Notes: generated from the sequence alone by a model not told the origin. A stretch of 37,114 nt of DNA from a virus (IMGVR_UViG_3300029084_000052:1-37114), one strand, 5' to 3'. Shown: positions 19,426 to 32,012, counted from the first letter of the stretch. Translations and numbers: made by a program.

Positions 19426-20076
19426 TCAGCGACTGTCATTGCGCAATCTGCGCTCCAGCTGCTGTTTGTCTTTTTTCACGCCACAGCGGGGATCGAGCTG
19501 TAACGCATGGTTGAGATGATTAAGGGCGGAAGCCGGATTACTTTCACTCAGGACAGTGCCAATCGCTTTATGCAGACGCGCCCGTGACTGGTCCGGCATA
19601 TCCAGACCGTCTGTCAGCTCCAGCGTCTGCAGCAACAGATCGGCATCAAAGCCGGTAGTGGCAAGCATTGCGCTCTGCGCAGCGTCTGCCATTTCCTCTG
19701 CCAGCACGGTCTGCACGTTGCGGTTACCCAGCGGCATCACCCAGCCATGACGCAGGGCATGACGCCCGATCTCCAGCGCCCCGGCATAATCTCCGGCATC
19801 AATGCGCCACAGCATCACGTACATCAGCACGTCATCCTGTTGAGCGCCTCCGGCAGCCAGTACACCCTCAGCCCAGGCGGCGTACTTCGGCAGCAGCTCC
19901 ACCTTGATTTCCGCTTTTTTGACCGTGGACTGAACGCCCTTGAGACGGCGGCGGTCTTCCGCCAGTTGCAGCAGCATCAGGTCATAGCCCGACGCGTGGC
20001 GAACGCTGCCGCCCTCGCGGGCGGCCTGTTCAGCCTGAACGCGCAGGCGATGCTGCCGTGCGGGACTCAGGCTCAT
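19426..20076 (-). CDS. M: Terminase small subunit M
   Basis: 216-aa ORF at the P2 gpM position. Confidence 0.75.
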   Translation of the reverse strand: MSLSPARQHRLRVQAEQAAREGGSVRHASGYDLMLLQLAEDRRRLKGVQSTVKKAEIKVELLPKYAAWAEGVLAAGGAQQDDVLMYVMLWRIDAGDYAGALEIGRHALRHGWVMPLGNRNVQTVLAEEMADAAQSAMLATTGFDADLLLQTLELTDGLDMPDQSRARLHKAIGTVLSESNPASALNHLNHALQLDPRCGVKKDKQQLERRLRNDSR

Positions 20077-20079
20077 GGA

Positions 20080-21138
20080 TTACGCTCCGGTTTCTACTGC
20101 GACGGCGCTGAAGTCGCCAATCTGGATGTTTTCCACCAGTGCTGCGCAGCGGTAGTCCTCAACCACATAGGCTTCGTTAACGGATTCAAAGTTTTCAATC
20201 CGGTCACGTTTCGGGTTGTCGATAACTGAACGGCGGCGGGTGTCTTCCTGCCAGTAGATGGACAGGTTGTCCAGACGGGTGATCAGCAGCGCATTCGGCG
20301 GGAAAAACGGCGCACGCACGGCCTGCAGGCCCCCCATGCGCTTCTGACTGATGATCATATCGGCAGCCAGTTTTTCACTGTTTTCCTGCTCTTTGTTGAC
20401 CAGCGGGAAATACTTGTCAGACAGCAGTTCACGGCCGCAAATCACCACCAGATCGTCATCGTCCTGGTAGACCACGTCGATAAGCTCATTGACGGCATCC
20501 ATCACCACGGCGTCCAGGTTGGCATATTCGCCACCTTTCCCGACTTTCACCGCGCCCGGTGTGGTTTCACCGCCCGTGGTGGTGCTGCCCATGACATGAT
20601 CCGGTGCATCCTCACGGATTTTCTGCAGCCAGCCTTTGTTCACATCCTGCAGCAGCGGGTTTTCGCTACGGTTGGAGGTTTTCGCACGCTTCACGCCGTT
20701 AAAGCCGATCATGATGCGGTCCAGTGCCTGACGTTTCACGATGGCGTCACGGATACGCACCTGGAAATCCTGAAACTTCGCCCACAGGTCCAGCTTCGCG
20801 TAGGTCAGTACCGTGTCAAAGTTGGTCTGCTCGCATTTGTATTCCACATCGACCATCAGCGTAGGATCGACAGGTTCACGCTCTTTCGCGGTGGTGTCAG
20901 TGGTTCCGGCAATGGTGCTACCAACACCCAACCCCAGCAGCTGACCGGACTGCTCAGTCACTGGCGTGACGTTAATCAGCGTCAGGAAAGCGGCAGACTG
21001 CTGGATCTGGTCTTCCAGCGTCTGCTGTACAGACGGCTCCACGGTGAACTTGCTGGACAGTTCTTCAACTGCCACACCGTTCAGACGCGCCAGCTGCTGC
21101 AGGTAAGCGTTAAAAGCAAAGCGGGTATTCTTCTTCAT
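20080..21138 (-). CDS. N: Major capsid protein N
   Basis: 352-aa ORF at the P2 gpN position and of matching length. Confidence 0.85.
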   Translation of the reverse strand: MKKNTRFAFNAYLQQLARLNGVAVEELSSKFTVEPSVQQTLEDQIQQSAAFLTLINVTPVTEQSGQLLGLGVGSTIAGTTDTTAKEREPVDPTLMVDVEYKCEQTNFDTVLTYAKLDLWAKFQDFQVRIRDAIVKRQALDRIMIGFNGVKRAKTSNRSENPLLQDVNKGWLQKIREDAPDHVMGSTTTGGETTPGAVKVGKGGEYANLDAVVMDAVNELIDVVYQDDDDLVVICGRELLSDKYFPLVNKEQENSEKLAADMIISQKRMGGLQAVRAPFFPPNALLITRLDNLSIYWQEDTRRRSVIDNPKRDRIENFESVNEAYVVEDYRCAALVENIQIGDFSAVAVETGA

Positions 21139-21154
21139 CAGGTTTTGTGCTCCA

Positions 21155-21988
21155 TCAGCAATTGGTCAGAGTGTCAGCGGGGGCGTTACCGCCTGTTGCA
21201 CGCTGGCGGTAGTCCTGGCGGCTGTCTTCATGACTCAACTTATTCACCAGTTCGTTAAAGGCGGTTTGCTGCTCCTGCAGAGCAGTCTCCAGTTCAGACA
21301 GGCGTTCTTCCTGCTCAGACAGGGATTTTTCGGTGCGTGCGCTCAGGTTCTGCTGCTCAGTGGCGACCAGCTCCACGGCCTTATGCACATCAGCGAACCG
21401 GGCGTCATCGGACTGCTCTTTTTTGGTAAACAACGCCGTGACGCGGGCAAACAGGGACGGTTTGTCATCCTGGACTTCTTCCAGTTCGATCACCGTTTCC
21501 TCTGCAGCGGTAAAAAGATTGGCGGGATTCTGCTTGCGGTTTGCCAGCGGGTTATGGGCTGCACTGGCGCTGAATGTCAGCATTTCCGTACCCAGACTGG
21601 CAGGATCATCAGTGGCTGCCAGGCCAACCAGGTAGGCTTTGCCCGTATCAGCGAACTTCGGGCTGACTTCCATAGAGGTGAATAATTTCTGGCCTTTTTT
21701 CACCAGTTCCACCAGGGACTCCGTTGGCTCAACGTCGGCATACAGCGCCATCTTGCCTGCCAGCGGACCTTCCGTGATTTCTTCAGCAAACAGCGCCGTC
21801 ACCTTGCCGTAGCGGTTAAAGGTGCTGTCCGGCAGATAAGACTTGATGTGCTCAAGGTTAATCAGCGCGGTATACACCGCCGGGTTGTAGCTGGCTGCCA
21901 TCTGTTCCAACCATTCACGCTGGATTTCGCGTCCGTCGGTAGTGGCACCTTCCACCCCGATGCGAAAACGCTTTGCTTTCACTGTCAT
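21155..21988 (-). CDS. O: Capsid scaffolding protein O
   Basis: 277-aa ORF with an acidic coiled-coil C-terminus, at the P2 gpO position. Confidence 0.8.
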   Translation of the reverse strand: MTVKAKRFRIGVEGATTDGREIQREWLEQMAASYNPAVYTALINLEHIKSYLPDSTFNRYGKVTALFAEEITEGPLAGKMALYADVEPTESLVELVKKGQKLFTSMEVSPKFADTGKAYLVGLAATDDPASLGTEMLTFSASAAHNPLANRKQNPANLFTAAEETVIELEEVQDDKPSLFARVTALFTKKEQSDDARFADVHKAVELVATEQQNLSARTEKSLSEQEERLSELETALQEQQTAFNELVNKLSHEDSRQDYRQRATGGNAPADTLTNC

Positions 21989-22130: not shown

Positions 22131-23897
22131 ATGAACACCACACTGACACCCGCAGATCTCGATCCCCGTCGGCAGGCCATGCTGCTGTACTTTCAGGGAT
22201 ACCGCGTAGCCCGCATTGCTGAAATGCTGGGCGAGAAAGTTGCAACTGTTCACAGCTGGAAAAAACGCGACAAGTGGGGTGATTATGGGCCGCTGGATCA
22301 GATGCAGCTCACCACCGCCGCACGCTATTGCCAGCTCATTATGAAGGAGCACAAAGAAGGGAAAGATTTCAAAGAGATTGACCTGCTGGCGCGCCAGTCG
22401 GAACGCCACGCGCGGATCGGCAAGTTTAACAATGGTGGCAACGAAGCCGACTTAAACCCTAACGTCGCCAACCGCAACAAAGGCCCACGCCGTCAGCCGG
22501 AAAAGAACGTTTTCACCGATGAACAGATTGAGAAGCTGGAAGAAATCTTCCATTCCTCCATGTTCAACTACCAGCGCCACTGGTGGGAAGCCGGAAAAAC
22601 CAACCGCATCCGCAACCTGCTGAAGTCACGCCAGATCGGCGCGACCTTCTATTTTGCCCGTGAAGCCCTGATTGACGCCCTGCTGACCGGACGTAACCAG
22701 ATTTTCCTTTCTGCCAGTAAGGCACAGGCCCACGTATTCAAACAGTACATCATCGACTTTGCCAAAGAAGTAGAGGTGGAGCTGAAAGGCGATCCGATGG
22801 TGCTTCCCAACGGGGCCACACTGTATTTCCTCGGCACCAATGCCCGCACGGCCCAGAGTTATCACGGCAACCTGTATCTGGATGAATATTTCTGGATACC
22901 AAAATTCCAGGAGCTGCGCAAAGTGGCTTCCGGTATGGCTATTCACAAAAAATGGCGACAAACCTATTTTTCCACGCCATCCAGTCTGACACACAGTGCT
23001 TATCCGTTCTGGTCCGGTGCGCTGTTCAACCGTGGGCGCAACAAAGCCGATAAGGTGGACATCGACCTGTCCCACAGCAATCTGGCCCCCGGCCTGCTGT
23101 GCGCAGACGGGCAATACCGCCAGATAGTCACCGTGGAAGATGCGGTGCGCGGCGGCTGTAACCTGTTCGACCTCGACCAGCTACGCATGGAGTACAGCCC
23201 GGACGAATACCAGAACCTGCTGATGTGCGAGTTTGTGGACGATCTCGCGTCCGTGTTTCCGCTCAGCGAGCTGCAGGCGTGCATGGTGGACAGTTGGGAA
23301 GTCTGGACCGACTTTCATGCACTGGCGCTGCGCCCGTTTGGCTGGCGCGAAGTGTGGATCGGTTATGACCCGGCAAAAGGCACGCAAAACGGCGACAGCG
23401 CCGGATGCGTGGTGGTGGCACCGCCAGCCGTGCCGGGTGGTAAGTTCCGCATTCTTGAGCGTCACCAGTGGCGCGGGATGGACTTCCGCGCCCAGGCTGA
23501 CGCCATCAAAAAACTGACCGAACAGTACAACGTGACCTATATCGGTATCGACTCAACCGGCGTTGGTCACGGGGTTTACGAGAACGTGAAAGCGTTTTTT
23601 CCTGCCGTCCGGGAGTTTGTCTACAACCCCAACGTTAAAAACGCCCTGGTACTCAAGGCCTACGACATTATCAGCCACCGCCGTCTGGAGTTTGACGCCG
23701 GGCACACCGACATTGCGCAGTCATTCATGGCTATCCGTCGCGCCACCACCGCCAGCGGCAACCGCCCGACCTATGAAGCCAGCCGCAGCGAAGAAGCCAG
23801 CCACGCCGATCTGGCCTGGGCAACAATGCACGCACTGTTTAACGAACCGCTGCAGGGCGAGTCCGCCAATACCAGCAATATTGTGGAGATTTTTTGA
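22131..23897 (+). CDS. P: Terminase large subunit P
   Basis: 588-aa ORF at the P2 gpP position and of matching length. Confidence 0.85.
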   Translation: MNTTLTPADLDPRRQAMLLYFQGYRVARIAEMLGEKVATVHSWKKRDKWGDYGPLDQMQLTTAARYCQLIMKEHKEGKDFKEIDLLARQSERHARIGKFNNGGNEADLNPNVANRNKGPRRQPEKNVFTDEQIEKLEEIFHSSMFNYQRHWWEAGKTNRIRNLLKSRQIGATFYFAREALIDALLTGRNQIFLSASKAQAHVFKQYIIDFAKEVEVELKGDPMVLPNGATLYFLGTNARTAQSYHGNLYLDEYFWIPKFQELRKVASGMAIHKKWRQTYFSTPSSLTHSAYPFWSGALFNRGRNKADKVDIDLSHSNLAPGLLCADGQYRQIVTVEDAVRGGCNLFDLDQLRMEYSPDEYQNLLMCEFVDDLASVFPLSELQACMVDSWEVWTDFHALALRPFGWREVWIGYDPAKGTQNGDSAGCVVVAPPAVPGGKFRILERHQWRGMDFRAQADAIKKLTEQYNVTYIGIDSTGVGHGVYENVKAFFPAVREFVYNPNVKNALVLKAYDIISHRRLEFDAGHTDIAQSFMAIRRATTASGNRPTYEASRSEEASHADLAWATMHALFNEPLQGESANTSNIVEIF

Positions 23898-24928
23898 TGG
23901 GAAAGAGTAAGAAAAACCGCGCTGCGGCGACGAAACAGAGCCAGCATAAAAATCAAACTTCAGCCGAAGCTTTCAGCTTTGGTGATCCCATTCCTGTACT
24001 GGACCGCCGCGAACTGCTGGACTATGTGGAATGCGTACAGACGGATCGCTGGTATGAGCCACCCGTCAGTTTTGACGGACTGGCACGCACCTTCCGCGCT
24101 GCCGTGCATCACAGTTCACCGATTGCAGTGAAATGCAACATTCTGACCAGCACCTACATCCCTCACCCGCTGCTCAGCCAGCAGGCTTTTTCACGTTTTG
24201 TGCAGGACTATCTGGTATTTGGTAACGCCTACCTGGAGAAACGCACGAACCGGTTCGGTGAAGTTATCGCCCTTGAGCCTGCTCTGGCAAAATACACCCG
24301 ACGCGGGTTAGACCTGGATACCTACTGGTTTGTGCAATACGGTATGATCACCCAGCCATATCAGTTCACGAAAGGCAGCATCTTTCATCTGATGGAACCG
24401 GACATCAACCAGGAAATCTACGGCCTGCCCGGTTATCTTTCTGCTATTCCATCCGCCCTGCTCAACGAGTCTGCCACGCTGTTCCGCCGCAAGTATTACA
24501 TTAACGGCAGTCATGCAGGCTTCATCATGTATATGACCGACGCCGCGCAGAACCAGGAGGATGTAAACAACCTCCGCAACGCGATGAAAAGTGCCAAAGG
24601 TCCTGGTAACTTCCGTAACCTATTTATGTACTCGCCAAACGGCAAAAAGGACGGACTTCAGATCATCCCGTTGTCAGAAGTCGCGGCGAAGGATGAGTTT
24701 TTGAATATCAAGAACGTCAGCCGTGATGACATGATGGCGGCGCACCGTGTACCGCCACAAATGATGGGTATTATGCCGAATAATGTTGGGGGGTTTGGGG
24801 ATGTGGAGAAGGCAAGTAATGTATTTGTTCGTAACGAACTTATCCCCTTACAAAAACGTATAGAACAATTAAATCAATGGATAGGAAACACAATTATTAA
24901 TTTTTTACCATATTCTCTCCAAAGTTAA
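23897..24928 (+). CDS. Q: Portal protein Q
   Basis: About 343 aa; the ATG overlaps the P stop (TGATG). Confidence 0.85.
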   Translation: MGKSKKNRAAATKQSQHKNQTSAEAFSFGDPIPVLDRRELLDYVECVQTDRWYEPPVSFDGLARTFRAAVHHSSPIAVKCNILTSTYIPHPLLSQQAFSRFVQDYLVFGNAYLEKRTNRFGEVIALEPALAKYTRRGLDLDTYWFVQYGMITQPYQFTKGSIFHLMEPDINQEIYGLPGYLSAIPSALLNESATLFRRKYYINGSHAGFIMYMTDAAQNQEDVNNLRNAMKSAKGPGNFRNLFMYSPNGKKDGLQIIPLSEVAAKDEFLNIKNVSRDDMMAAHRVPPQMMGIMPNNVGGFGDVEKASNVFVRNELIPLQKRIEQLNQWIGNTIINFLPYSLQS

Positions 24929-24940
24929 AAAATAGCATAT

Positions 24941-24963
24941 GGGTGCATAATGTTTATGCACCC
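24941..24963. terminator. Perfect 10-bp hairpin between convergent Q and the TIR-like gene, probable bidirectional terminator
   Basis: GGGTGCATAA tgt TTATGCACCC, flanked by an A-run upstream and T-rich sequence downstream. Confidence 0.55.
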
Positions 24964-24968
24964 TCTTA

Positions 24969-25586
24969 TTACCAGTTAAAAATTGATGAGCTGCGAATTG
25001 CAGGAACATCCGATGGATTTCGTTTGGCAGCTGGTTCCATCAACTTACGCTTGTTAAATGCCTGATCAATATAATACTCAGGATTTTTAATAAAGACAGA
25101 GTATTTTACCAATGCACAATATACGTCAGAGTCATTATAATGGGGAACTGTTTTTTCATAAACATGATTCTTTCTAACCAGATAAGGCAAATAATAATCA
25201 TATCCCCAACCTGGCGTTCTTAGACTTATAGAACATCCGCATGATGGATCTGCACATACTGCAGGAGTAAACACACTGTCGTAAATTTCATCTCTGATAA
25301 CACCAATTAGACCATTATAGTTTTCTCCCCAGAGTGATGCTTGAATTTCAGAGTTTATAAATGGACGATTTTTGGTTTCCGTTCCAATAAGAACGACAGT
25401 AACCGTTGAGTCTTTTAAAAAATCCTCACGAATAGTCCTCATTATTGTTTCATCAGTGTTAGTTGTACTAATGTCACCATCACTTACCGACTTATCAATA
25501 AACGATTCTCCTCCGAATAAATCAATAATCTCATCTTTGAGATCTTGTTCGTTAGCATGATGATAACTAAGAAACGTCTTATGCAT
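24969..25586 (-). CDS. TIR-like domain protein (ThsB/DUF1863-like), accessory gene
   Basis: Begins MHKTFLSYHHANEQD (TIR beta-A-like F-L-S-Y); a later VTVVLIGTETKNRPFINSEIQ stretch resembles the ThsB-type core with a candidate catalytic Glu; AT-rich coding sequence. Confidence 0.55.
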   Translation of the reverse strand: MHKTFLSYHHANEQDLKDEIIDLFGGESFIDKSVSDGDISTTNTDETIMRTIREDFLKDSTVTVVLIGTETKNRPFINSEIQASLWGENYNGLIGVIRDEIYDSVFTPAVCADPSCGCSISLRTPGWGYDYYLPYLVRKNHVYEKTVPHYNDSDVYCALVKYSVFIKNPEYYIDQAFNKRKLMEPAAKRNPSDVPAIRSSSIFNW

Positions 25587-26317
25587 TATTCACTCCATTT
25601 ATCAACATTTATATCAAACTCTTTGACTACCTTATCATTGAAGAAATCGTTTACTTCTTTAAAACCTTCCAATACTTGACTAAAATGATAATAATGCTTT
25701 TGTATAGTACTTATAGGGGTTAAATGATACGGCAGTGATATAAATTCGCCGTTAGGGTCTCTATCCTTTGTGGTCACTTTATCATTATCTGAAACATATT
25801 TATGCCATCTCCGATAATTATTTTGATGCTTTGTTAAAAAAGAGTTTAACGTTTTCAAAATTTCATTTGAAAGTAAATACAGTTTTTTATCTCTTTTTTT
25901 CTTCACATCTAGTAATTTCATTTCATCTCTAATGAATTTATAGCACTCATAATATGAGTTTAAAACTTCTTCAATTGAGTCATAATTCGGATCAAATTTA
26001 AATAATGTTCGCTTCGTATCCAGATAATTTTTTACGCTCTTTTTAAAAAGAAGATCAGACTTATTTAGTAAAATATTAATACCACCAAAACTAAGTTGCT
26101 CCAATCTCAATGAATATCTTTGATGAAATGCACCGACCAGCAAGATATAAGCAACTAAAAATAGTATTAATACTGATAGAAAAGCACGAATTATGCTTAC
26201 ATTTGACATGAAATTAACTATAAACCACCATTTTTCAAACGGTGAAAACGGAATGCACCCCATGATAATAAGTAGAAGAACAAAGATACAACCCCATAAA
26301 ACCCACAATCTGTACAT
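25586..26317 (-). CDS. Two-TM membrane protein with a roughly 170-aa Lys/Glu-rich C-terminal domain of unknown family; partner of the TIR-like gene
   Basis: Start at the ATG (MYRLWVLWGCIF..) after an AAAAGGA Shine-Dalgarno; two hydrophobic helices; stop overlaps the TIR-like start (TAATG). Confidence 0.5.
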   Translation of the reverse strand: MYRLWVLWGCIFVLLLIIMGCIPFSPFEKWWFIVNFMSNVSIIRAFLSVLILFLVAYILLVGAFHQRYSLRLEQLSFGGINILLNKSDLLFKKSVKNYLDTKRTLFKFDPNYDSIEEVLNSYYECYKFIRDEMKLLDVKKKRDKKLYLLSNEILKTLNSFLTKHQNNYRRWHKYVSDNDKVTTKDRDPNGEFISLPYHLTPISTIQKHYYHFSQVLEGFKEVNDFFNDKVVKEFDINVDKWSE

Positions 26318-26470
26318 AAGAAAGATCCTTTTTCTTTTTATAATACTGCAACTACACCTCAAGTCAAAACCCTCTTCTGATATTACCCTCTACTACAGTA
26401 ACCCATCACATGACCTCCGACTTATCAGAAGACTAGCCAAACTTTCTCAATCAAATCAGGTTGCGCGCGC

Positions 26471-26495
26471 TCGTATCCCCGCCACGCCTGCCCGC
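26471..26495 (-). other. cos-like sequence (candidate phage cohesive-end site)
   Basis: Minus strand reads GGCGTGGCGGGGA.., matching the first 13 nt of the P2/186 19-nt cohesive end as I recall it; lies in a short GC-rich island. Confidence 0.4.
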
Positions 26496-26605
26496 TTTAT
26501 GTAGTAGTTTTCATGCAGGTGCATGATCTACGCGAAAGCCCGCCAATTCTGGCGGGCCCTAGCAAAAACGATCCTCAAACGATCATGCGATCTCATGCAG
26601 CATAG

Positions 26606-27448
26606 TCATGCACGATCATTTGACTCAGCATCTGCTGCACGCTTGCTGCGCGAAGATGCACTTTTACTATCAATCTTTCGACAGTTCTTTCTATCCCTGG
26701 CTTCATTTTCTTTAAATTTGTTATATGTCTCAGTATCAAAAAACGAAATTGTTTCAACCTCATCTTTTGGTATGAGCACACGGAAATCTTCGATATTAAG
26801 CCGAGACATTCCACTTATCACACCACTATCAAGATAATGTTGGTGATAGTTAGTCGTGATACTAATCGTTAGATCATCTTTATCCCGATATCCGCTTAAC
26901 ATCGGGAGAAGTTCAAGGTGCTCTGAAAGCCCGTTTTCTAACGCCGGACAAGTAACAAGACCAACATAGATTTTGCGAGACGACAGAGTTGCTATGATCG
27001 GAAACTGTCTTGCGGACGCTTCCATGAGTAATGATTCGAAAGCGTTATTACCTACAGCTTTAGCTAAGGCATCCCAGCGACGATCTCCACGTGATGTGCG
27101 TAACTTATTTCCAAAACCTGAAATCGCAGCGAGGACAATTGAAATCATAACCCATGCTATCTGTTTGATTTCATTTATTCTTTGAAGTTTGTCTTTCGAT
27201 GAAGACAACATGCCATTAAAACTGTCAGGTGTTAGATTCAAGGCATTAGCCAGCCAACGAAACCCTCCGCTGACGTTCAAAATAAAGGTGAAAAAACCGC
27301 CAAGGAGAAAAAAAACGATACCCCAGGCAGCCACAAAAAAATAAGCGTCCCAGCCGTTGGAACGCTTATATCGGTATCTTGTTGAAAGTGATAGGTTTAC
27401 ATAAATAAAACCACTAACCAAAATCACTGCTAAAAGTAATGTTGCCAT
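26606..27448 (-). CDS. Three-TM membrane protein with a soluble C-terminal domain, unknown function; accessory gene
   Basis: 280-aa ORF with three N-terminal hydrophobic helices, AT-rich; coupled to the upstream 71-aa gene (TAATG). Confidence 0.5.
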   Translation of the reverse strand: MATLLLAVILVSGFIYVNLSLSTRYRYKRSNGWDAYFFVAAWGIVFFLLGGFFTFILNVSGGFRWLANALNLTPDSFNGMLSSSKDKLQRINEIKQIAWVMISIVLAAISGFGNKLRTSRGDRRWDALAKAVGNNAFESLLMEASARQFPIIATLSSRKIYVGLVTCPALENGLSEHLELLPMLSGYRDKDDLTISITTNYHQHYLDSGVISGMSRLNIEDFRVLIPKDEVETISFFDTETYNKFKENEARDRKNCRKIDSKSASSRSKRAADAESNDRA

Positions 27449-27663
27449 TATCTGGTTCTATTAGTTTTCTCTTTTACAGTGCTCGTTTTGATGCCTTCAA
27501 GCTTATCCATCTGTGCCTTGATGGCATCCATTGCTCTTTTGTTAGACAAGTCTACGGACACAAAACCATCTTTACTAAGATTGAGTTTGTCCTGGTTCTC
27601 TTTAAGAACCCTTGCCAGACGTTCAACTGGGTTACCCAGGCTAAATGCGGCGATGCTTGACAT
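27448..27663 (-). CDS. Small 71-aa hydrophilic protein, unknown function; first gene of a coupled pair
   Basis: ATG preceded by AAGGGGGAG; stop overlaps the start of the 280-aa membrane protein. Confidence 0.45.
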   Translation of the reverse strand: MSSIAAFSLGNPVERLARVLKENQDKLNLSKDGFVSVDLSNKRAMDAIKAQMDKLEGIKTSTVKEKTNRTR

Positions 27664-27933
27664 AACTCCCCCTTTTCACATGGCGCGGAAGTCTACACTC
27701 CGACGCCTACAACCTCAACAGATTATCTTTAAAATTTAGACAACAATATCATCTGTTGATTGCGTTACTTAAACTTAAGTTCAATGCGCTCGATCATGCA
27801 AGCTGTTTCTTAAGAACTGTTAATTTCCTGGCATATATAGTGGTTAAGGTAACAAATTGACACTAACGCCTCGCATAGCTCGTTGTTCAACCTTGCTGAC
27901 GCCAGAAGCAAGTTCAGACGCCAGCAACGTTTC

Positions 27934-28167
27934 TTAATGCAGCCAGCTGTCGTCTTCCCACACCTTCTGCATAATTTTCATCACTTGTTTTCTTTCTTCG
28001 TCCAGTTGCAATCCGGTCAGTTCCACACCGTTAGAGCTACCTTTGCGGATACGAATTACCGTTTTGGGATACAGAGGACGCAGATTGCGGTAAAGCTCGG
28101 ATTCAAGGGCGTCCAGGGTAGACTGGCTAATCTTCTGCTCTTTATCGATCATTATTTCAATGCGCAT
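27934..28167 (-). CDS. DinI-family protein (damage-inducible protein I-like; 186 Tum C-terminal-domain-like)
   Basis: MRIEIMIDKEQKISQSTLDALESELYRNLRPLYP...KIMQKVWEDDSWLH aligns with E. coli DinI (MRIEVTIAK...ALAGELSRR...ILQETWESADDW) from memory. Confidence 0.75.
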   Translation of the reverse strand: MRIEIMIDKEQKISQSTLDALESELYRNLRPLYPKTVIRIRKGSSNGVELTGLQLDEERKQVMKIMQKVWEDDSWLH

Positions 28168-28178
28168 AAAAAGTCACC

Positions 28179-28367
28179 TCAACTGATGACATCCATTGAG
28201 CGGTTGTATTCGTGGGTTCTGATTTTTGCCATGAGTTCATCTGTTAGTTCAGAAACCCACTGCAAAGCCAGCCCCTTCTCTTCATCACTACACTCACTAG
28301 CCGCTACAAGCTTAAGAAAAAAATCAATGCGCTGGAGCTTCAAAGACTCCAAAAAATAGTCCTGCAT
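28179..28367 (-). CDS. Small 62-aa protein, first gene of the SOS-regulated operon (possible Tum N-terminal-like part)
   Basis: Strong AGGAGG Shine-Dalgarno; lies about 45 bp downstream of a LexA box and 11 nt upstream of the dinI-like gene. Confidence 0.5.
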   Translation of the reverse strand: MQDYFLESLKLQRIDFFLKLVAASECSDEEKGLALQWVSELTDELMAKIRTHEYNRSMDVIS

Positions 28368-28409
28368 CTTTCCTCCTATGACACCAAAGCAATACTGTAA
28401 ATATAACCA

Positions 28410-28425
28410 CTGTTTATATTTACAG
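28410..28425 (-). promoter_or_regulatory. LexA operator (SOS box) inside a 37-bp palindrome
   Basis: CTGTTTATATTTACAG (CTG-N10-CAG) within ATACTGTAAATATAACCACTGTTTATATTTACAGTAT; an overlapping near-match CTGTAAATATAACCAC lies just upstream. Confidence 0.7.
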
Positions 28426-28519
28426 TATATAATAATCTTACTGATGTAAAACGTTTTTTTACGTTCATCAGCCTGATATGCCTGGTATTATTAAGAGCAC
28501 GAATTGTTAACCCGCGTAA

Positions 28520-30934
28520 TTAATACAGGTTTCGCCACTTATCATCTTCCTGCAAACGCTGGTTCCGATAGAAGATACGCAGGCCTGCTCCTGACGGAAT
28601 ACTGCCGCCGCGAAGGAGTAAATCGACCTCTTTCTCGCTACCATCAAATCCTCTGGACTTCAGCTCATAGACGAGCTGCTGTCGCTGATGGTCTGTAATT
28701 CGCTGTTTGTAGTCTTTACGCCGTTTCGGTTTAACCAGGCGTAACCTTGCTGCCAGTTCCCGGCGCTCTTTTTTGCTCATACTGTGCAGGTAATCGTGCA
28801 ACTGCTTGTCATCCATGCGGGTAATGTCCGTTCTGGTGCCCCCATCAGCTGATTTATCTTTCTCCTGTTGGTTCAAATTTTCAGCAAGGGGACAGTTATT
28901 GCCACGAGTCCAAGGGGCGCAAGCGCCCTGGTCGGCTGCCGCCTCCTGAACGTCAACGGCTTTACGGACCATTTTCCACTTCACTGCATGAGTGCAGATC
29001 TTGCCCTCTGCAATGGGTGACCAGATGCCATAAATACGAATACCGTGATCGCCATAGGCGGTCGGCTCTTCGTTGATTTCATAAGCGGTTCTGATGAGGT
29101 GATATTTACGGGGAACCAGTACGCCGCCCTGCTTCATGATGTAGGTGGCAAAGCAACCAGCATCAGCTGCAGCCAGAATGGCATCAAGGCGCGGGTTATC
29201 CAGTACCGGCGCACCTGCTTTTTTGTCACCCTGTTGCCTTGCCGCCTGACCAGCCAGCAATCGCAGTTCACGGTAAGCCTGACGCCCCGGAATGCCAAAG
29301 AAGCGGAATTGCTGAACACGATGCAGAGACGCCCAGGCATTAACGTATTCAGCGTTATCACGCAGAGATTTACCCGTTTCCTTGCTGATCTCGCCAGCCA
29401 GACCACGCCCGTCAATGTTCTTACTGATGTATTTCGCGATGTAGCTTGTTGGTGTACCTTTGCGCGGGTTTATCAGCTCAGACTTAAAGCGTGGTCCTGT
29501 GTTATTACCCAGCTCCTCGCGGTCTTCACGAATGGCAAACTTACGCAACAAAGCAGTAATGGCGCGGCGATCTTTTTTGCGCATAAAACACAACAGGTGC
29601 CAGTGAACTGTACCGTCATGATGCGGCTCAGCCACCCGCACGCCATACCAGCGCAATCCGGCTTTGTACATCGCCTTACGAAATGCAGCAAACATGCCGA
29701 CCAGATAATCACTGCTTTGTCTTACCGTCGCATTTGTCCAAGTCGGGTTGGGCCTGCCGTTATTTAGCGTGGAATGGAAACGTGACGGACAGGTGATGGT
29801 GTAGAAAACGGCGCAGTCACCGCGCATTTCCGCGATAAGCTCCAGACCTTTAACACATGCCATCATCTCATTGCGGCGATGCGCCGGGTTGCTACTACTG
29901 GCGTTTACCACGTCCTCCATATCCAGCGTGTCGCCGTCTTCGTTCACCAGTTCATGAGAACGGAAAAACTCCAGCGACTTACGGCGCTGCTCACGTTTAT
30001 GCATCACGGCTTCATAGCTGACATAGGGAGATGCTTTTTTGCTGACCAGGCAAACAGCACGCAACTGCTCTTCCCGCCATTCGCAACGCATCTTCCATAA
30101 TTTCCGATACCACCAGTCGGCGCACAACATACGCGCCAGCGAACCCGGAATGAGTTCATAGGGTACGGGTTTACGGCGGTTTCTTTTCCGGCGGAGTTGC
30201 TCAAACGCAGGAGGGATGACATCCAGACGCAGGGTTTCCGCCGCCACCCTTTCCCATGTCTTGCGGATTTCTTCTGGCTTAACGTCATCGGTGGCATACA
30301 AATCACCACAAACTGCATCAAGGCACATGCTCATATGCGCGGCAACAAGGGTAGACAGGCGCTTCACCTGAGCCTGACTCATTTCAGGCAAGATCAGCAG
30401 GCCGTCCAGCCCTTCATGGCTTGCCATAAAACGAAAAGATGCAGATAGCTGGCTGTCGCGTACATGCTCCAGTCGTTCCAGACATGGTTTAATCGTCTCA
30501 CGCAAATAGCGGGAATAAGCCTTTGGCCTGCCCAGGCTGCTGAAGTATTCAATACGTTGCATCAGCGGCTTGCTGATATGGGAAGGCTGGGCGTTAACGT
30601 CCGCCAGTATGACCATGTCCGGATTAAAACGCTGCTGCTCATGCACCAGCTTTGCCCGGCTAATGAGCTTATCCTGCTCCATTTCGCGCTGGACAGGATC
30701 ACGGGATTCATTAAAGAAATAACGCTCCCAGACCTGATCACTCAGTGCCTCGCGGCGCAGTTGTTCCTGCTTGTTATCGGCAGCGTACAGAGTGATCAGG
30801 TTTGAAAGCGCAGAAACCGGCGCAACTTCCGCCGGGTCCAGATAAGGGTTAATCGCCTTTTTCGGGCTGTTCCATGAGAATGCTGCGGCGGCCTCGTTAA
30901 AGCCGCTGCAGTTGTTCATATCAGCATGGCTCAT
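28520..30934 (-). CDS. A: Replication initiation protein A (rolling-circle nicking endonuclease, P2 gpA family)
   Basis: 804-aa ORF of P2 gpA size (about 761 aa) at the P2 A position; its start overlaps the Dam stop. Confidence 0.8.
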
Positions 30935-31788
30935 GCACGCACTCCGTACACGGCAGAACTATCCACGCCACGCGAAGGATCAAATCCCACCCAGCAGCGC
31001 GCCCCAGAAACAGCGATGATTTCTGTTGCAGATTTACTCTCACCAGCTGCTACGCCGATGCTGCGTTTTGCCTTGATGTAGTGGTGAGTAAAATTGCGAT
31101 ACAGCGAACGGATCAGGGATGTGTCACTGTTAGAAACAATGACCGGATGTCCTTCTGATGACCGATGTTCAAGAACGGATGCCAGGTGATACTGGTCATC
31201 TTCAGTGAAACCATCAGTGTGATAGCTGGAAAACGTACCGTCATACGGCGGATCGCAATACACCACATCCCCCGCCTTCAACATCGCCAGCGTTTCATCA
31301 AAGCTGGCGCAGATAAACGTTGCTCGTTGGGCTTTCTCTGCAAATGCGCGAATTTCTTTTTCAGGGAAATACGGATTTTTATAATTACCGTAGGGAATGT
31401 TGAAATGCCCGCTCTTGTTATAGCGACATAACCCACGGTAACCGTGACGATTGAGATACAGGAAATATACCGCTTTCATGAAATCAGTAATTTCAGTTGA
31501 GTAATTAAACTCCTGCCTTATGTTGTAATAAGCCACCTCCCTGTTTGCTTCCTTAAATAAAACTCTGGCGCGAGATATAAACGATTCACAATCAGCGGCA
31601 ACCTTTTTATAGAGGTTGATTAAATCAGGATTAATATCCGCAACCAGATAGCTGGGATAATCCGTCTCCATCATCACAGCACAGGAACCCGCGAAAGGTT
31701 CAACCAGTCGCGGGCCAGCTGGAAGATGTTTTTTCAGTTCGGGCATTACGGCGGTTTTATTTCCCGCCCATTTCAGGATGGTGCTCAT
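30931..31788 (-). CDS. DNA adenine methyltransferase (Dam/D12 class N6-adenine MTase)
   Basis: FAGSCAV (motif I) and DPPY (motif IV); ATG at the [11 protein letters not shown] position overlaps the upstream gene stop. Confidence 0.8.
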
Positions 31789-32012
31789 ACAGCACCTCCG
31801 TTGTAATGTTTGCCTTTCAGCTCTGCGATTTCCTGACAGGTAATGCAAAGCTGCACACCTGGAATGGCGCGGCGGCGTGCTGGCGGAATTGGCGCTTCAC
31901 ACTCAATGCAAAGCACGCGGGACACGCCCGGCGTTTTGGCACGGGCAGCATGGATATGGCGCTGGCGTTCTTCTTCAACGCGCTGCTGTACGAGATCCAT
32001 TGCATCAGCCAT
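31785..32012 (-). CDS. TraR/DksA-family C4 zinc-finger protein
   Basis: CIEC-x17-CITC motif in a 75-aa ORF. Confidence 0.7.
   Translation of the reverse strand: MADAMDLVQQRVEEERQRHIHAARAKTPGVSRVLCIECEAPIPPARRRAIPGVQLCITCQEIAELKGKHYNGGAV

What the first reader, a model, noticed from the sequence alone, without database searches (positions are those of the whole stretch)
26440..26620. GC-rich island containing a cos-like sequence, displaced from Q
Between two AT-rich accessory operons sits a short GC-rich block whose minus strand reads GGCGTGGCGGGGA, matching the start of the P2/186 cohesive end as I recall it, next to a GC hairpin (gcccgccaattctggcgggc). If this is cos, the TM+TIR operon lies between the portal gene and the packaging site, and the 71-aa/3-TM operon lies on the other side of it.
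Basis: partly seen in the sequence, partly recalled or inferred. Interest (0 to 1): 0.45.

Follow-up and report, generated by a model that had tools for sequence, protein, structure and literature searches.

The report
P2-family prophage cos packaging site
The GC-rich island is the cohesive-end (cos) DNA-packaging site of a Fels-2/SEN8-type P2-family prophage of E. coli, flanked on both sides by swappable accessory gene cassettes; this layout is common and already described, so the finding is correct but ordinary.

Summary
The minus strand at 26488..26476 reads GGCGTGGCGGGGA. It lies in a 51% GC island between roughly 30% GC flanks, and the hairpin sits at 26538-26557.

The island is a P2-family cos site.
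- The 19-mer GGCGTGGCGGGGATACGAG (26488..26470) is identical to the cos annotated in the plaque-forming Salmonella phage SEN8.
- The 55-bp cos core matches 186, P4 and P2 at 43, 42 and 41 of 55 positions, in register with their annotated cohesive ends.
- A 153-bp block (26462-26614) is conserved in 58 enterobacterial prophages and occurs in 1274 of 5426 complete E. coli genomes.
- The block holds three distal and two proximal TGCAT-type boxes, two GATC sites, a GC hairpin, the cleavage site and CGCGCGC.
- Full-length terminase (gpM, gpP) and portal (gpQ) genes are present.

"Displaced from Q" is true relative to P2 and 186 but normal for this clade. In 53 of 66 species-representative loci cos lies at least 600 bp from Q (median 1.6 kb), and Fels-2, RE-2010, SEN8 and Cartapus all carry cargo there.

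Both the cos-to-Q slot and the gpA-gpQ cos-proximal defence hotspot are published, and the same 2TM+TIR protein pair is already catalogued.

Virion ends were not mapped, so cleavage is inferred. Verdict: already known, low interest.

The parts
26462..26614 (-). Whole conserved cos block (153 bp), read on the minus strand, which is the P2 map orientation. It is an island of phage backbone between two variable cargo slots.
   Evidence: Column conservation in 58 enterobacterial loci is at least 0.8 from 26614 to 26462 and drops to 0.35-0.5 outside. blastn hits in phage records cover 26456/63-26614. The block is present in 1274 of 5426 complete E. coli genomes.
26470..26488 (-). Predicted 19-nt cohesive-end sequence (the cosN equivalent), GGCGTGGCGGGGATACGAG. 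Inferred staggered nicks fall between 26489/26488 on the minus strand and 26469/26470 on the plus strand, giving 5' overhangs.
   Evidence: Identical to the 'putative cos site' at 1-19 of SEN8 NC_047753 (PMC5427200). It matches the annotated 186 cohesive end at 15/19 and the P2 and P4 ends at 14/19, in register. It is the commonest variant, in 33 of 58 loci. Cleavage positions are inferred by alignment and were not measured.
26463..26517 (-). Equivalent of the 55-bp cos core of P2-family phages: TGCATGAAAAC-N10-AAAGCGGGCA, then the 19-mer, then CGCGCGC.
   Evidence: Ungapped identity is 43/55 to 186, 42/55 to P4, 41/55 to P2 and 53/55 to SEN8. The 55-bp core concept of Ziermann and Calendar 1990 is taken as cited in PMC3931495 and PMC5694545.
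26583..26613 (-). Three distal TGCATG-type boxes: GTGCATGA at 26613-26606, TGCATGA at 26599-26593 and CGCATGA at 26589-26583. They are candidate terminase (gpM) recognition repeats on the right-end side.
   Evidence: The boxes are nearly invariant in 58 loci. Equivalent TGCAT repeats sit at the same relative position in 186, P2 and P4. The binding role is inferred.
26570..26584 (-). A pair of nearly invariant GATC sites separated by a variable 7-nt spacer (GATCGTTTGAGGATC).
   Evidence: Both sites are present in 52 of 58 aligned sequences, the window included, while the spacer varies. They are absent from the P2, 186 and P4 cos regions. There is no covariation as an inverted repeat and no association with the phage methylase gene.
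26535..26560 (-). GC-rich hairpin or inverted repeat (stem GCCCGCCA/TGGCGGGC at 26557-26550 and 26545-26538, extendable to 11 pairs) followed by TTT.
   Evidence: Folds as an 11-bp stem in both the MFE and centroid structures. Across 58 loci, 88.6% of cells are paired, against 26-47% when the partner is slid. Five of 8 pairs show changes on both sides, and 0-6 of 500 shuffles reach the observed values. At least 4 T in the next 6 nt occurs in 40 of 58 loci, but the window has only TTT, and the terminator scan did not call it. GC inverted repeats at the same place in 186 and P4 lack a T-run.
26507..26526 (-). Proximal boxes TCATGCAC and TGCATGAAAAC.
   Evidence: These columns are invariant or nearly invariant. 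They are shared with 186 (CATGCAACTGCATTAAAAC), P4 and P2.
24969..26362 (-). Cargo slot 1, between Q and cos. It holds a 2-TM protein (25586-26317 as annotated in RefSeq, or 26362 from the first TTG) and a ThsB-like TIR protein (24969-25586). A promoter-like site lies at 26367-26340.
   Evidence: Pfam PF08937 at 1.5e-14 and PADLOC ThsB models. Two hydrophobic segments. RefSeq annotation. Promoter-like match at 10 of 12 positions. The same protein pair, WP_000549631 + WP_000286098, is listed in the P2-hotspot supplementary table of PMC9122126.
26606..27663 (-). Cargo slot 2, between cos and DinI/A. It holds a 71-aa protein (27448-27663) and a 280-aa protein with 3 TM segments (26606-27448). The stop codon of the 280-aa ORF (26608-26606) lies inside the first distal box.
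   Evidence: ORF list. Hits to PHROG 9843 and PHROG 3630, both of unknown function. Hydropathy. The module is absent from E. coli APEC O78 and many other genomes, with the breakpoint at 26613/26614.
23894..24928 (+). Portal gene Q, the backbone boundary of the hotspot.
   Evidence: Pfam Phage_portal at 1.8e-17.
28520..30934 (-). Replication gene A, the other backbone boundary. DinI (27934-28167) and a conserved 62-aa ORF (28179-28367) lie between A and cargo slot 2.
   Evidence: Pfam Phage_GPA at 5.4e-127. PHROG 189 (DinI) and PHROG 698.
19426..20076 (-). Terminase small subunit (gpM homologue), full length. It is the protein expected to recognise cos.
   Evidence: Pfam PF05944 at 1.4e-40 and PHROG 74 at 1.2e-88.
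22131..23897 (+). Terminase large subunit (gpP homologue), full length. It is the nuclease/ATPase expected to nick cos.
   Evidence: Pfam Terminase_6N, Terminase_6C and Terminase_5.

Best explanation
The island is the cos site of a Fels-2/SEN8-type P2-family prophage (family Peduoviridae) in E. coli.

Inferred mechanism, by homology with P2 and 186: after induction, the phage terminase (gpM small subunit, gpP large subunit) recognises the roughly 125 bp on the gene-A side of the cut site. That stretch holds the distal and proximal TGCAT boxes. The terminase then makes two nicks 19 nt apart, at 26489/26488 on the minus strand and 26469/26470 on the plus strand. This yields linear virion DNA with 5'-protruding GGCGTGGCGGGGATACGAG ends, which is packaged through the gpQ portal.

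Only 19 + 7 conserved bp lie on the Q side of the cut.

Because cos is essential and compact, it survives as a 153-bp backbone island between two independent cargo slots. In the linear virion chromosome the 2TM+TIR cassette would sit at the extreme left end, and the cassette of the 71-aa and 3-TM proteins at the extreme right end. The two become neighbours again on circularisation.

The conserved GC hairpin plus T-run inside the block most likely doubles as a weak intrinsic terminator for transcription that enters from the A/cargo-2 side. That step is inference.
For: Shown by tool results:
- The 19-mer is identical to the annotated cos of the plaque-forming phage SEN8, whose record starts exactly at this sequence and ends exactly at the base matching window 26489.
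- The 55-bp core aligns without gaps, in register with the annotated cohesive ends of 186 (43/55), P4 (42/55) and P2 (41/55).
- The box-hairpin-box-cosN-GCGCGC architecture is shared with 186 and P4. P2 shares the boxes but not the GC inverted repeat.
- The 153-bp block is conserved in 58 loci from different enterobacterial species while both flanks are unrelated.
- The site lies between Q and A, as in every P2-family genome.
- The exact 13-mer GGCGTGGCGGGGA occurs only once in the window.
- The gpM, gpP and gpQ ORFs are full length.
- No known RNA family matches the region.
- The hairpin shows compensatory changes.

From the literature: the cos-proximal gpA-gpQ hotspot (PMC9122126) and the cosL-Q slot (PMC5694545).
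Against: - No physical mapping of virion ends exists for this prophage. The cos of SEN8 was itself assigned by annotation, not by end sequencing.
- The last 6 nt of the 19-mer differ from P2 and 186, so the exact 3' nick position rests on alignment alone.
- Whether this prophage is inducible is unknown.
- The terminator role of the hairpin is weak here. The window has only TTT after the stem, the consensus scan did not call it, and 186 and P4 have an inverted repeat without a T-run.
- The terminase-binding role of the TGCAT boxes is inferred from conservation only.
Confidence: 0.92

Rival explanations
1. The block is a relic cos in a defective prophage. It is homologous to cos but no longer used for packaging.
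For: Some E. coli genomes carrying the same TIR-cos-DinI segment have clearly degraded prophages. In APEC O78 the portal and tape-measure genes are pseudogenes. Inducibility of the window's prophage was not tested.
Against: In the window every nearly invariant position of the block matches the consensus. The terminase, portal, capsid and scaffold ORFs are full length. The 19-mer is the commonest functional-type variant and equals that of a viable phage.
Confidence: 0.1
2. The island is chiefly an intergenic regulatory element, such as a terminator or promoter region between two accessory operons or a small RNA gene. On this view its likeness to cos is a coincidence of a short GC-rich motif.
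For: The 13-mer alone is not statistically remarkable when mismatches are allowed. The hairpin lies 47 nt downstream of the stop codon of the 280-aa ORF and is followed by T residues.
Against: Homology extends over 55-153 bp, in register with annotated cohesive ends of four phages. The block is conserved whatever cargo flanks it, including loci with no cargo on one side. Rfam finds nothing, and the terminator scan does not call the hairpin.
Confidence: 0.02
3. [quoted passage not shown] This would explain why cassette boundaries abut it on both sides.
For: The breakpoint of cargo slot 2 is at 26613/26614, exactly at the edge of the block. Conservation collapses within a few bases of both edges. 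The two slots vary independently: 6 genomes have both cassettes, while many have the TIR cassette only. P4 shares the same cos architecture. Cos is stated to be the only region homologous between P2 and P4 (PMC9122126).
Against: Sharp boundaries are equally expected from purifying selection on an essential site flanked by dispensable DNA. No recombination junctions or shared cassettes between P2-like and P4-like elements were examined here.
Confidence: 0.3

Closest known systems
cos of Salmonella phage SEN8 (Felsduovirus; KT630647.2 / NC_047753), with Fels-2, RE-2010 and Escherichia phage Cartapus
   Same: - The 19-mer is identical, and the core matches at 53/55.
- The distal boxes, hairpin and proximal boxes are the same.
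- Cargo genes lie between cos and Q in each: a hypothetical protein plus an HNH endonuclease in SEN8, DUF4145 in Cartapus, STM2723.1 in Fels-2, and an 'abortive infection protein' in RE-2010.
   Different: - The cargo content differs. Here it is 2TM + ThsB-like TIR on the Q side, and the 71-aa protein plus the 3-TM protein on the A side.
- The window has TTT rather than TTTT after the hairpin.
cos of coliphages 186 (U32222) and P2 (AF063097) and of satellite P4 (NC_001609)
   Same: - A 19-nt GC-rich 5' cohesive end beginning GGCG(T/A)GGCGGGGA.
- AAAGYGGGC(A/G) immediately upstream of the 19-mer and (C/T)GCGCGC immediately downstream.
- TGCAT repeats on the right-end side.
- A GC inverted repeat between the distal and proximal boxes in 186 and P4.
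- A position between A and Q in 186 and P2.
   Different: - The last 6 nt of the 19-mer differ: ATACGAG here, against AAAGCAT in 186 and AAAGCAC in P2 and P4.
- Cos lies about 170-180 bp from the end of the portal gene in P2 and 186, but 1.5 kb away here.
- The GATC pair and the T-run after the hairpin are absent from P2, 186 and P4.
- P2 lacks the GC inverted repeat.
cos-proximal gpA-gpQ anti-phage hotspot of P2-like phages (Rousset et al. 2022, PMC9122126), and the cosL-Q moron slot (Dodd and Egan 1996 and Nakayama 1999, as cited in PMC5694545)
   Same: - Variable accessory and defence cassettes lie next to cos, between replication gene A and portal gene Q.
- The very protein pair found here is listed in that paper's supplementary table of loci.
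   Different: Nothing substantive. This work adds nucleotide-level edges of the conserved block and a count showing that the Q-side slot is occupied in most species-representative loci.

Membership tests
P2-family (Peduoviridae) cos site | A 19-nt GC-rich cohesive-end sequence homologous to GGCG(A/T)GGCGGGGAAAGCA(C/T) | tested here: met
   15/19 to 186, 14/19 to P2 and P4, and 19/19 to the SEN8 annotated cos, all in register.
P2-family (Peduoviridae) cos site | Conserved 55-bp core around the cohesive end (Ziermann and Calendar 1990, as cited in PMC3931495 and PMC5694545) | tested here: met
   41-43 of 55 to P2, P4 and 186 without gaps. For comparison, P2 against 186 is 48/55.
P2-family (Peduoviridae) cos site | Located between the replication gene A side and portal gene Q of a P2-type genome, as a single copy | tested here: met
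   Q is at 23894-24928 and A at 28520-30934, and the exact 13-mer occurs once in the window. The same synteny is seen in 66 related loci.
P2-family (Peduoviridae) cos site | Cognate gpM/gpP-type terminase encoded by the same element | tested here: met
   PF05944 (small subunit) at 1.4e-40. PF03237, PF17289 and PF06056 (large subunit). PHROG 74 and PHROG 3746.
P2-family (Peduoviridae) cos site | Virion DNA has 5'-protruding cohesive ends generated at this site, and the site is sufficient for packaging or transduction | not testable with these tools
   This needs virion DNA end mapping or a cos-plasmid transduction assay. Even the SEN8 cos was assigned by annotation.
gpA-gpQ cos-proximal defence hotspot of P2-like phages | Variable gene content between conserved A and Q in otherwise related prophages | tested here: met
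   Q-to-cos distance runs from 114 to 3515 bp and cos-to-A distance from 461 to 4391 bp across 66 loci. Six E. coli genomes share the full arrangement, while many have only the TIR cassette.
gpA-gpQ cos-proximal defence hotspot of P2-like phages | The cassettes confer anti-phage defence | not testable with these tools
   There is domain evidence only: a ThsB-like TIR. The pair is catalogued in the hotspot table but was not found among the validated systems in the passages returned.
Thoeris defence system (for the 2TM + TIR cassette) | ThsB-type TIR protein | tested here: met
   PF08937 at 1.5e-14 and PADLOC ThsB models down to 3.4e-12.
Thoeris defence system (for the 2TM + TIR cassette) | ThsA-type effector (SIR2 or Macro/SLOG domain) encoded alongside | tested here: not met
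   The adjacent 243/258-aa 2-TM protein has no Pfam, PADLOC or PHROG hit. The cassette should therefore not be filed as Thoeris, although it may work in a similar way, as a TIR paired with a membrane effector.

The most novel reading that the evidence does not exclude
The Fels-2/SEN8-type cos block carries two clade-specific additions that P2 lacks and that 186 and P4 share only in part. One is a structurally maintained GC hairpin followed by a T-run (186 and P4 have the inverted repeat but no T-run). The other is a fixed pair of GATC sites one helical turn apart.

On this reading they are functional modules. The hairpin would be a built-in terminator that insulates the cleavage site from transcription of whatever cassette lands in the A-side slot. 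The GATC pair would be a Dam-methylation-sensitive element that gates terminase recognition, as at the P1 pac site (own knowledge).

Natural cassette turnover would then delimit the minimal cos at single-base resolution, as 26462-26614.
Probability: 0.15. Interest if true: 0.35.

Novelty: already known. Interest (0 to 1): 0.12.

Why it matters
The practical value is in annotation. The block is left unannotated in RefSeq, where the features under the match are 'none' in almost all listed records, even though it is present in about 23% of complete E. coli genomes.

Marking it has three uses:
- It splits the well-known gpA-gpQ defence hotspot into two independently varying slots.
- It tells which cassette ends up at which end of the virion chromosome.
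- It gives a precise 153-bp candidate for a minimal cos, for use in cosmid or transduction tools based on Fels-2/SEN8-type phages.

It does not change current understanding of P2-family packaging.

Tried and rejected
- **Known RNA family.** Rfam with permissive filters over 24900-28600 gave only a chance miRNA hit at E = 0.42, outside the block. Rejected.
- **Hairpin as a canonical intrinsic terminator.** The consensus scan did not call it. The window has only TTT after the stem, although 40 of 58 relatives have at least 4 T in the next 6 nt. Kept only as a weak, inferred secondary role.
- **GATC pair as an inverted repeat or hairpin (GATCC/GGATC).** It shows no covariation beyond shuffles, with 241-480 of 500 shuffles as high. 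Rejected as a structure.
- **GATC pair tied to the phage-encoded D12 adenine methylase (30931-31848; PF02086).** Among loci with enough flank: pair with gene 30, pair without gene 21, no pair with gene 2, neither 2. There is no association. Host Dam could still act, which was not tested.
- **The 13-mer as statistical evidence on its own.** With up to 2 mismatches there are 3 hits against 1.0 expected, and 6 of 100 shuffles do as well. It is not sufficient alone, so the argument rests on the extended alignments.
- **Search for a clade member with experimentally sequenced ends.** Only annotation-based assignments were found, for SEN8 and Cartapus.

Full report
**1. What is in the sequence**

The hairpin gcccgccaattctggcgggc is at 26538-26557.

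GC content is 0.515 at 26400-26599. It is 0.25-0.35 to the left and 0.345-0.38 to the right.

The exact 13-mer occurs once in the window. With up to two mismatches it is not statistically remarkable: 3 matches against 1.0 expected, and 6 of 100 shuffles do as well. The case therefore has to rest on longer alignments.

**2. Genomic setting**

The window is a P2-family prophage. The relevant genes are:

| Feature | Coordinates | Strand |
|---|---|---|
| Capsid and scaffold ORFs | 20080-21988 | - |
| Terminase small subunit gpM | 19426-20076 | - |
| Terminase large subunit gpP | 22131-23897 | + |
| Portal gpQ | 23894-24928 | + |
| Replication protein gpA | 28520-30934 | - |
| D12 adenine methylase | 30931-31848 | - |

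Between Q and A lie, in order:
- a ThsB-like TIR protein (24969-25586, minus strand)
- a 2-TM protein (25586-26317/26362, minus strand)
- the GC island
- a 280-aa protein with 3 TM segments (26606-27448, minus strand)
- a 71-aa protein (27448-27663, minus strand)
- DinI (27934-28167, minus strand)
- a conserved 62-aa ORF (28179-28367, minus strand)

The locus is from E. coli. Six complete genomes carry the whole Q-A interval at 99.6-99.9% identity.

**3. Homology to known cos sites**

I joined the right and left ends of the P2 (AF063097), 186 (U32222) and P4 (NC_001609) records. The cohesive ends of P2 and 186 are annotated in their records, and P4 starts with the same 19-mer as P2. I compared these junctions with the window's minus strand.

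All share the same order of elements:
- TGCAT-type boxes
- a GC-rich inverted repeat (not in P2)
- two proximal boxes ending in TGCAT(G/T)AAAAC
- AAAG(C/T)GGGC(A/G)
- the 19-nt cohesive end
- (C/T)GCGCGC

The stretch from the last TGCAT box to GCGCGC is exactly 55 bp. It corresponds to the '55-bp core' of Ziermann and Calendar 1990, as cited in PMC3931495 and PMC5694545.

In the window this core is 26517..26463 on the minus strand. Its ungapped identity to other cos cores is:

| Phage | Core identity | 19-mer identity |
|---|---|---|
| SEN8 | 53/55 | 19/19 |
| 186 | 43/55 | 15/19 |
| P4 | 42/55 | 14/19 |
| P2 | 41/55 | 14/19 |

For scale, P2 against 186 is 48/55.

The predicted 19-mer is GGCGTGGCGGGGATACGAG (26488..26470).

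**4. Closest relatives**

blastn against phage records finds the block in 86-100 records of Fels-2-like, Klebsiella, Salmonella and Yersinia phages, at up to 94% identity.

The record of the plaque-forming Salmonella phage SEN8 begins with the identical 19-mer, annotated 'putative cos site'. It ends at the base that aligns with window 26489. The genome announcement states the same cos sequence, but it was found by annotation rather than by end sequencing (PMC5427200). Phage Cartapus annotates the same region as 'putative cos site, homologous to the cos of P2'.

**5. Extent and anatomy of the conserved block**

I used the Q protein to fetch one locus per species from GTDB genomes. I then located the cos core between Q and A in 66 loci. 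An alignment of the window with 57 enterobacterial examples shows high conservation from 26614 to 26462, which is 153 bp. Conservation drops abruptly outside these limits.

About 125 bp lie on the A (right-end) side of the predicted cut. Only 19 + 7 bp lie on the Q (left-end) side.

The elements, read on the minus strand, are:
- Three distal boxes: GTGCATGA at 26613-26606, TGCATGA at 26599-26593 and CGCATGA at 26589-26583.
- Two nearly invariant GATC sites, at 26584-26581 and 26573-26570, separated by a variable 7-nt spacer.
- The GC hairpin at 26557-26538, followed by T residues.
- Proximal boxes at 26526-26507.
- AAAGCGGGCA at 26498-26489, then the 19-mer, then CGCGCGC at 26469-26463.

Position 13 of the 19-mer is freely variable among relatives (A, C, G or T). 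The window carries the commonest variant, found in 33 of 58 sequences.

**6. The hairpin**

It folds as an 11-bp stem in both the MFE and centroid structures. Across the 58 aligned sequences:
- 88.6% of cells are paired, against 26-47% when the partner is slid.
- Five of eight pairs show changes on both sides.
- Only 0-6 of 500 shuffles reach the observed measures.

186 and P4 have a different GC inverted repeat at the same place. The structure or symmetry is therefore maintained.

In 40 of 58 relatives at least 4 of the next 6 bases are T. That fits an intrinsic terminator for transcription arriving from the A side. The window, however, has only TTT, the consensus scan does not call it, and 186 and P4 lack a T-run. 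I treat termination as a plausible secondary role, not an established one.

**7. Is cos 'displaced' from Q?**

Relative to P2 and 186, yes. The cohesive end lies about 170-180 bp beyond the end of the portal gene in those phages, against 1.5 kb here.

This is nevertheless the normal state of the clade. In the 66 loci the Q-to-cos distance has a median of 1609 bp. It is at least 600 bp in 53 loci and below 350 bp in only 10. The cos-to-A distance has a median of 1427 bp.

Annotated phages show cargo between Q and cos as well: Fels-2 STM2723.1, the RE-2010 'abortive infection protein', 813R9 Hypoth_Ymh, SEN8 with a hypothetical protein plus an HNH endonuclease, and Cartapus DUF4145.

The two slots vary independently. 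Many E. coli genomes have the 2TM+TIR cassette and cos but lack the module of the 71-aa and 280-aa proteins. The breakpoint is at 26613/26614, the very edge of the block. The stop codon of the 280-aa ORF (26608-26606) lies inside the first distal box.

**8. What is already published**

- Rousset et al. 2022 describe the cos-proximal region between gpA and gpQ as a hotspot of anti-phage systems, found 18,150 times in E. coli genomes. They note that cos is the only region shared with P4 (PMC9122126).
- Their supplementary locus table lists the same two proteins found here, WP_000549631 (then named 'DUF1863') and WP_000286098.
- Askora et al. [quoted passage not shown] 1999 (PMC5694545).

Both the identity of the site and its position among cargo genes are therefore known.

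**9. Mechanism**

*Shown:* homology, synteny, single copy, conservation, and intact terminase and portal genes.

*Inferred from P2 and 186:*
- gpM and gpP recognise the block and nick 19 nt apart, at 26489/26488 on the minus strand and 26469/26470 on the plus strand.
- The virion chromosome has 5' cohesive ends.
- In the linear form the 2TM+TIR cassette is at the extreme left end, and the cassette of the 71-aa and 3-TM proteins at the extreme right end.
- The boxes are terminase-binding repeats.

*Not resolved here:* the direction of packaging, and whether this prophage is inducible.

**10. Side tests that led nowhere**

- Rfam finds no family in the region.
- The GATC pair does not behave as a paired structure.
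- The GATC pair does not co-vary with the presence of the phage methylase gene. The counts were 30, 21, 2 and 2.

**11. Verdict**

The feature is an ordinary member of a known kind, sitting in a known hotspot. Interest is low. The only mildly new points are the nucleotide-level limits of the conserved block, and the clade-specific GATC pair and hairpin T-run, whose functions remain untested.

Noticed in passing
window 24969-26362 (minus strand): The Q-side cassette pairs a ThsB-like TIR protein (PF08937, 1.5e-14) with a 243/258-aa protein. That protein has two N-terminal TM segments and no family hit in Pfam, PADLOC or PHROGs. No ThsA-type partner is present, so the cassette is not classical Thoeris. 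The same pair (WP_000549631 + WP_000286098) is listed in the P2-hotspot table of Rousset et al. 2022.
   Followed up: partly
window 26606-27663 (minus strand): The A-side cassette encodes a 71-aa soluble protein (PHROG 9843) and a 280-aa protein with three predicted TM segments (PHROG 3630). Both are of unknown function, with no Pfam or PADLOC hit. The stop codon of the 280-aa ORF lies inside the first distal TGCATGA box of cos. The cassette boundary against APEC O78 is at 26613/26614.
   Followed up: partly
window 26570-26584; also GATC at 26614-26617, 26589-26592 and 26525-26528: The cos block contains two nearly invariant GATC sites 11 bp apart, centre to centre, with a variable spacer. The window has further GATC sites nearby. 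These sites are absent from the P2, 186 and P4 cos regions. They show no association with the phage's own D12 methylase gene.
   Followed up: yes
window 26476 (position 13 of the 19-mer): Position 13 of the predicted cohesive end is A, C, G or T among relatives, while its neighbours are nearly invariant (GGCGTGGCGGGG-N-TACGAG).
   Followed up: no
window 24941-24963 (plus strand): A terminator-like hairpin, GGGTGCATAATGTTTATGCACCC, lies directly after the Q stop codon. The last codons of Q differ from those of relatives whose cos is adjacent to Q. This suggests that the left boundary of the Q-side cassette reaches into the 3' end of Q.
   Followed up: no
L096 (E. coli APEC O78, NC_020163, 1636419-1641768): The same TIR cassette, cos block and DinI are retained in a prophage whose portal and tape-measure genes are truncated pseudogenes. 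The cassette and cos therefore persist in degraded elements.
   Followed up: no
window 30931-31848 (minus strand): A D12-class N6-adenine DNA methyltransferase gene lies directly next to replication gene A, as in Fels-2, RE-2010 and 813R9. A homologue was detected in 32 of the 55 related loci that have more than 1 kb of sequence beyond gene A.
   Followed up: partly
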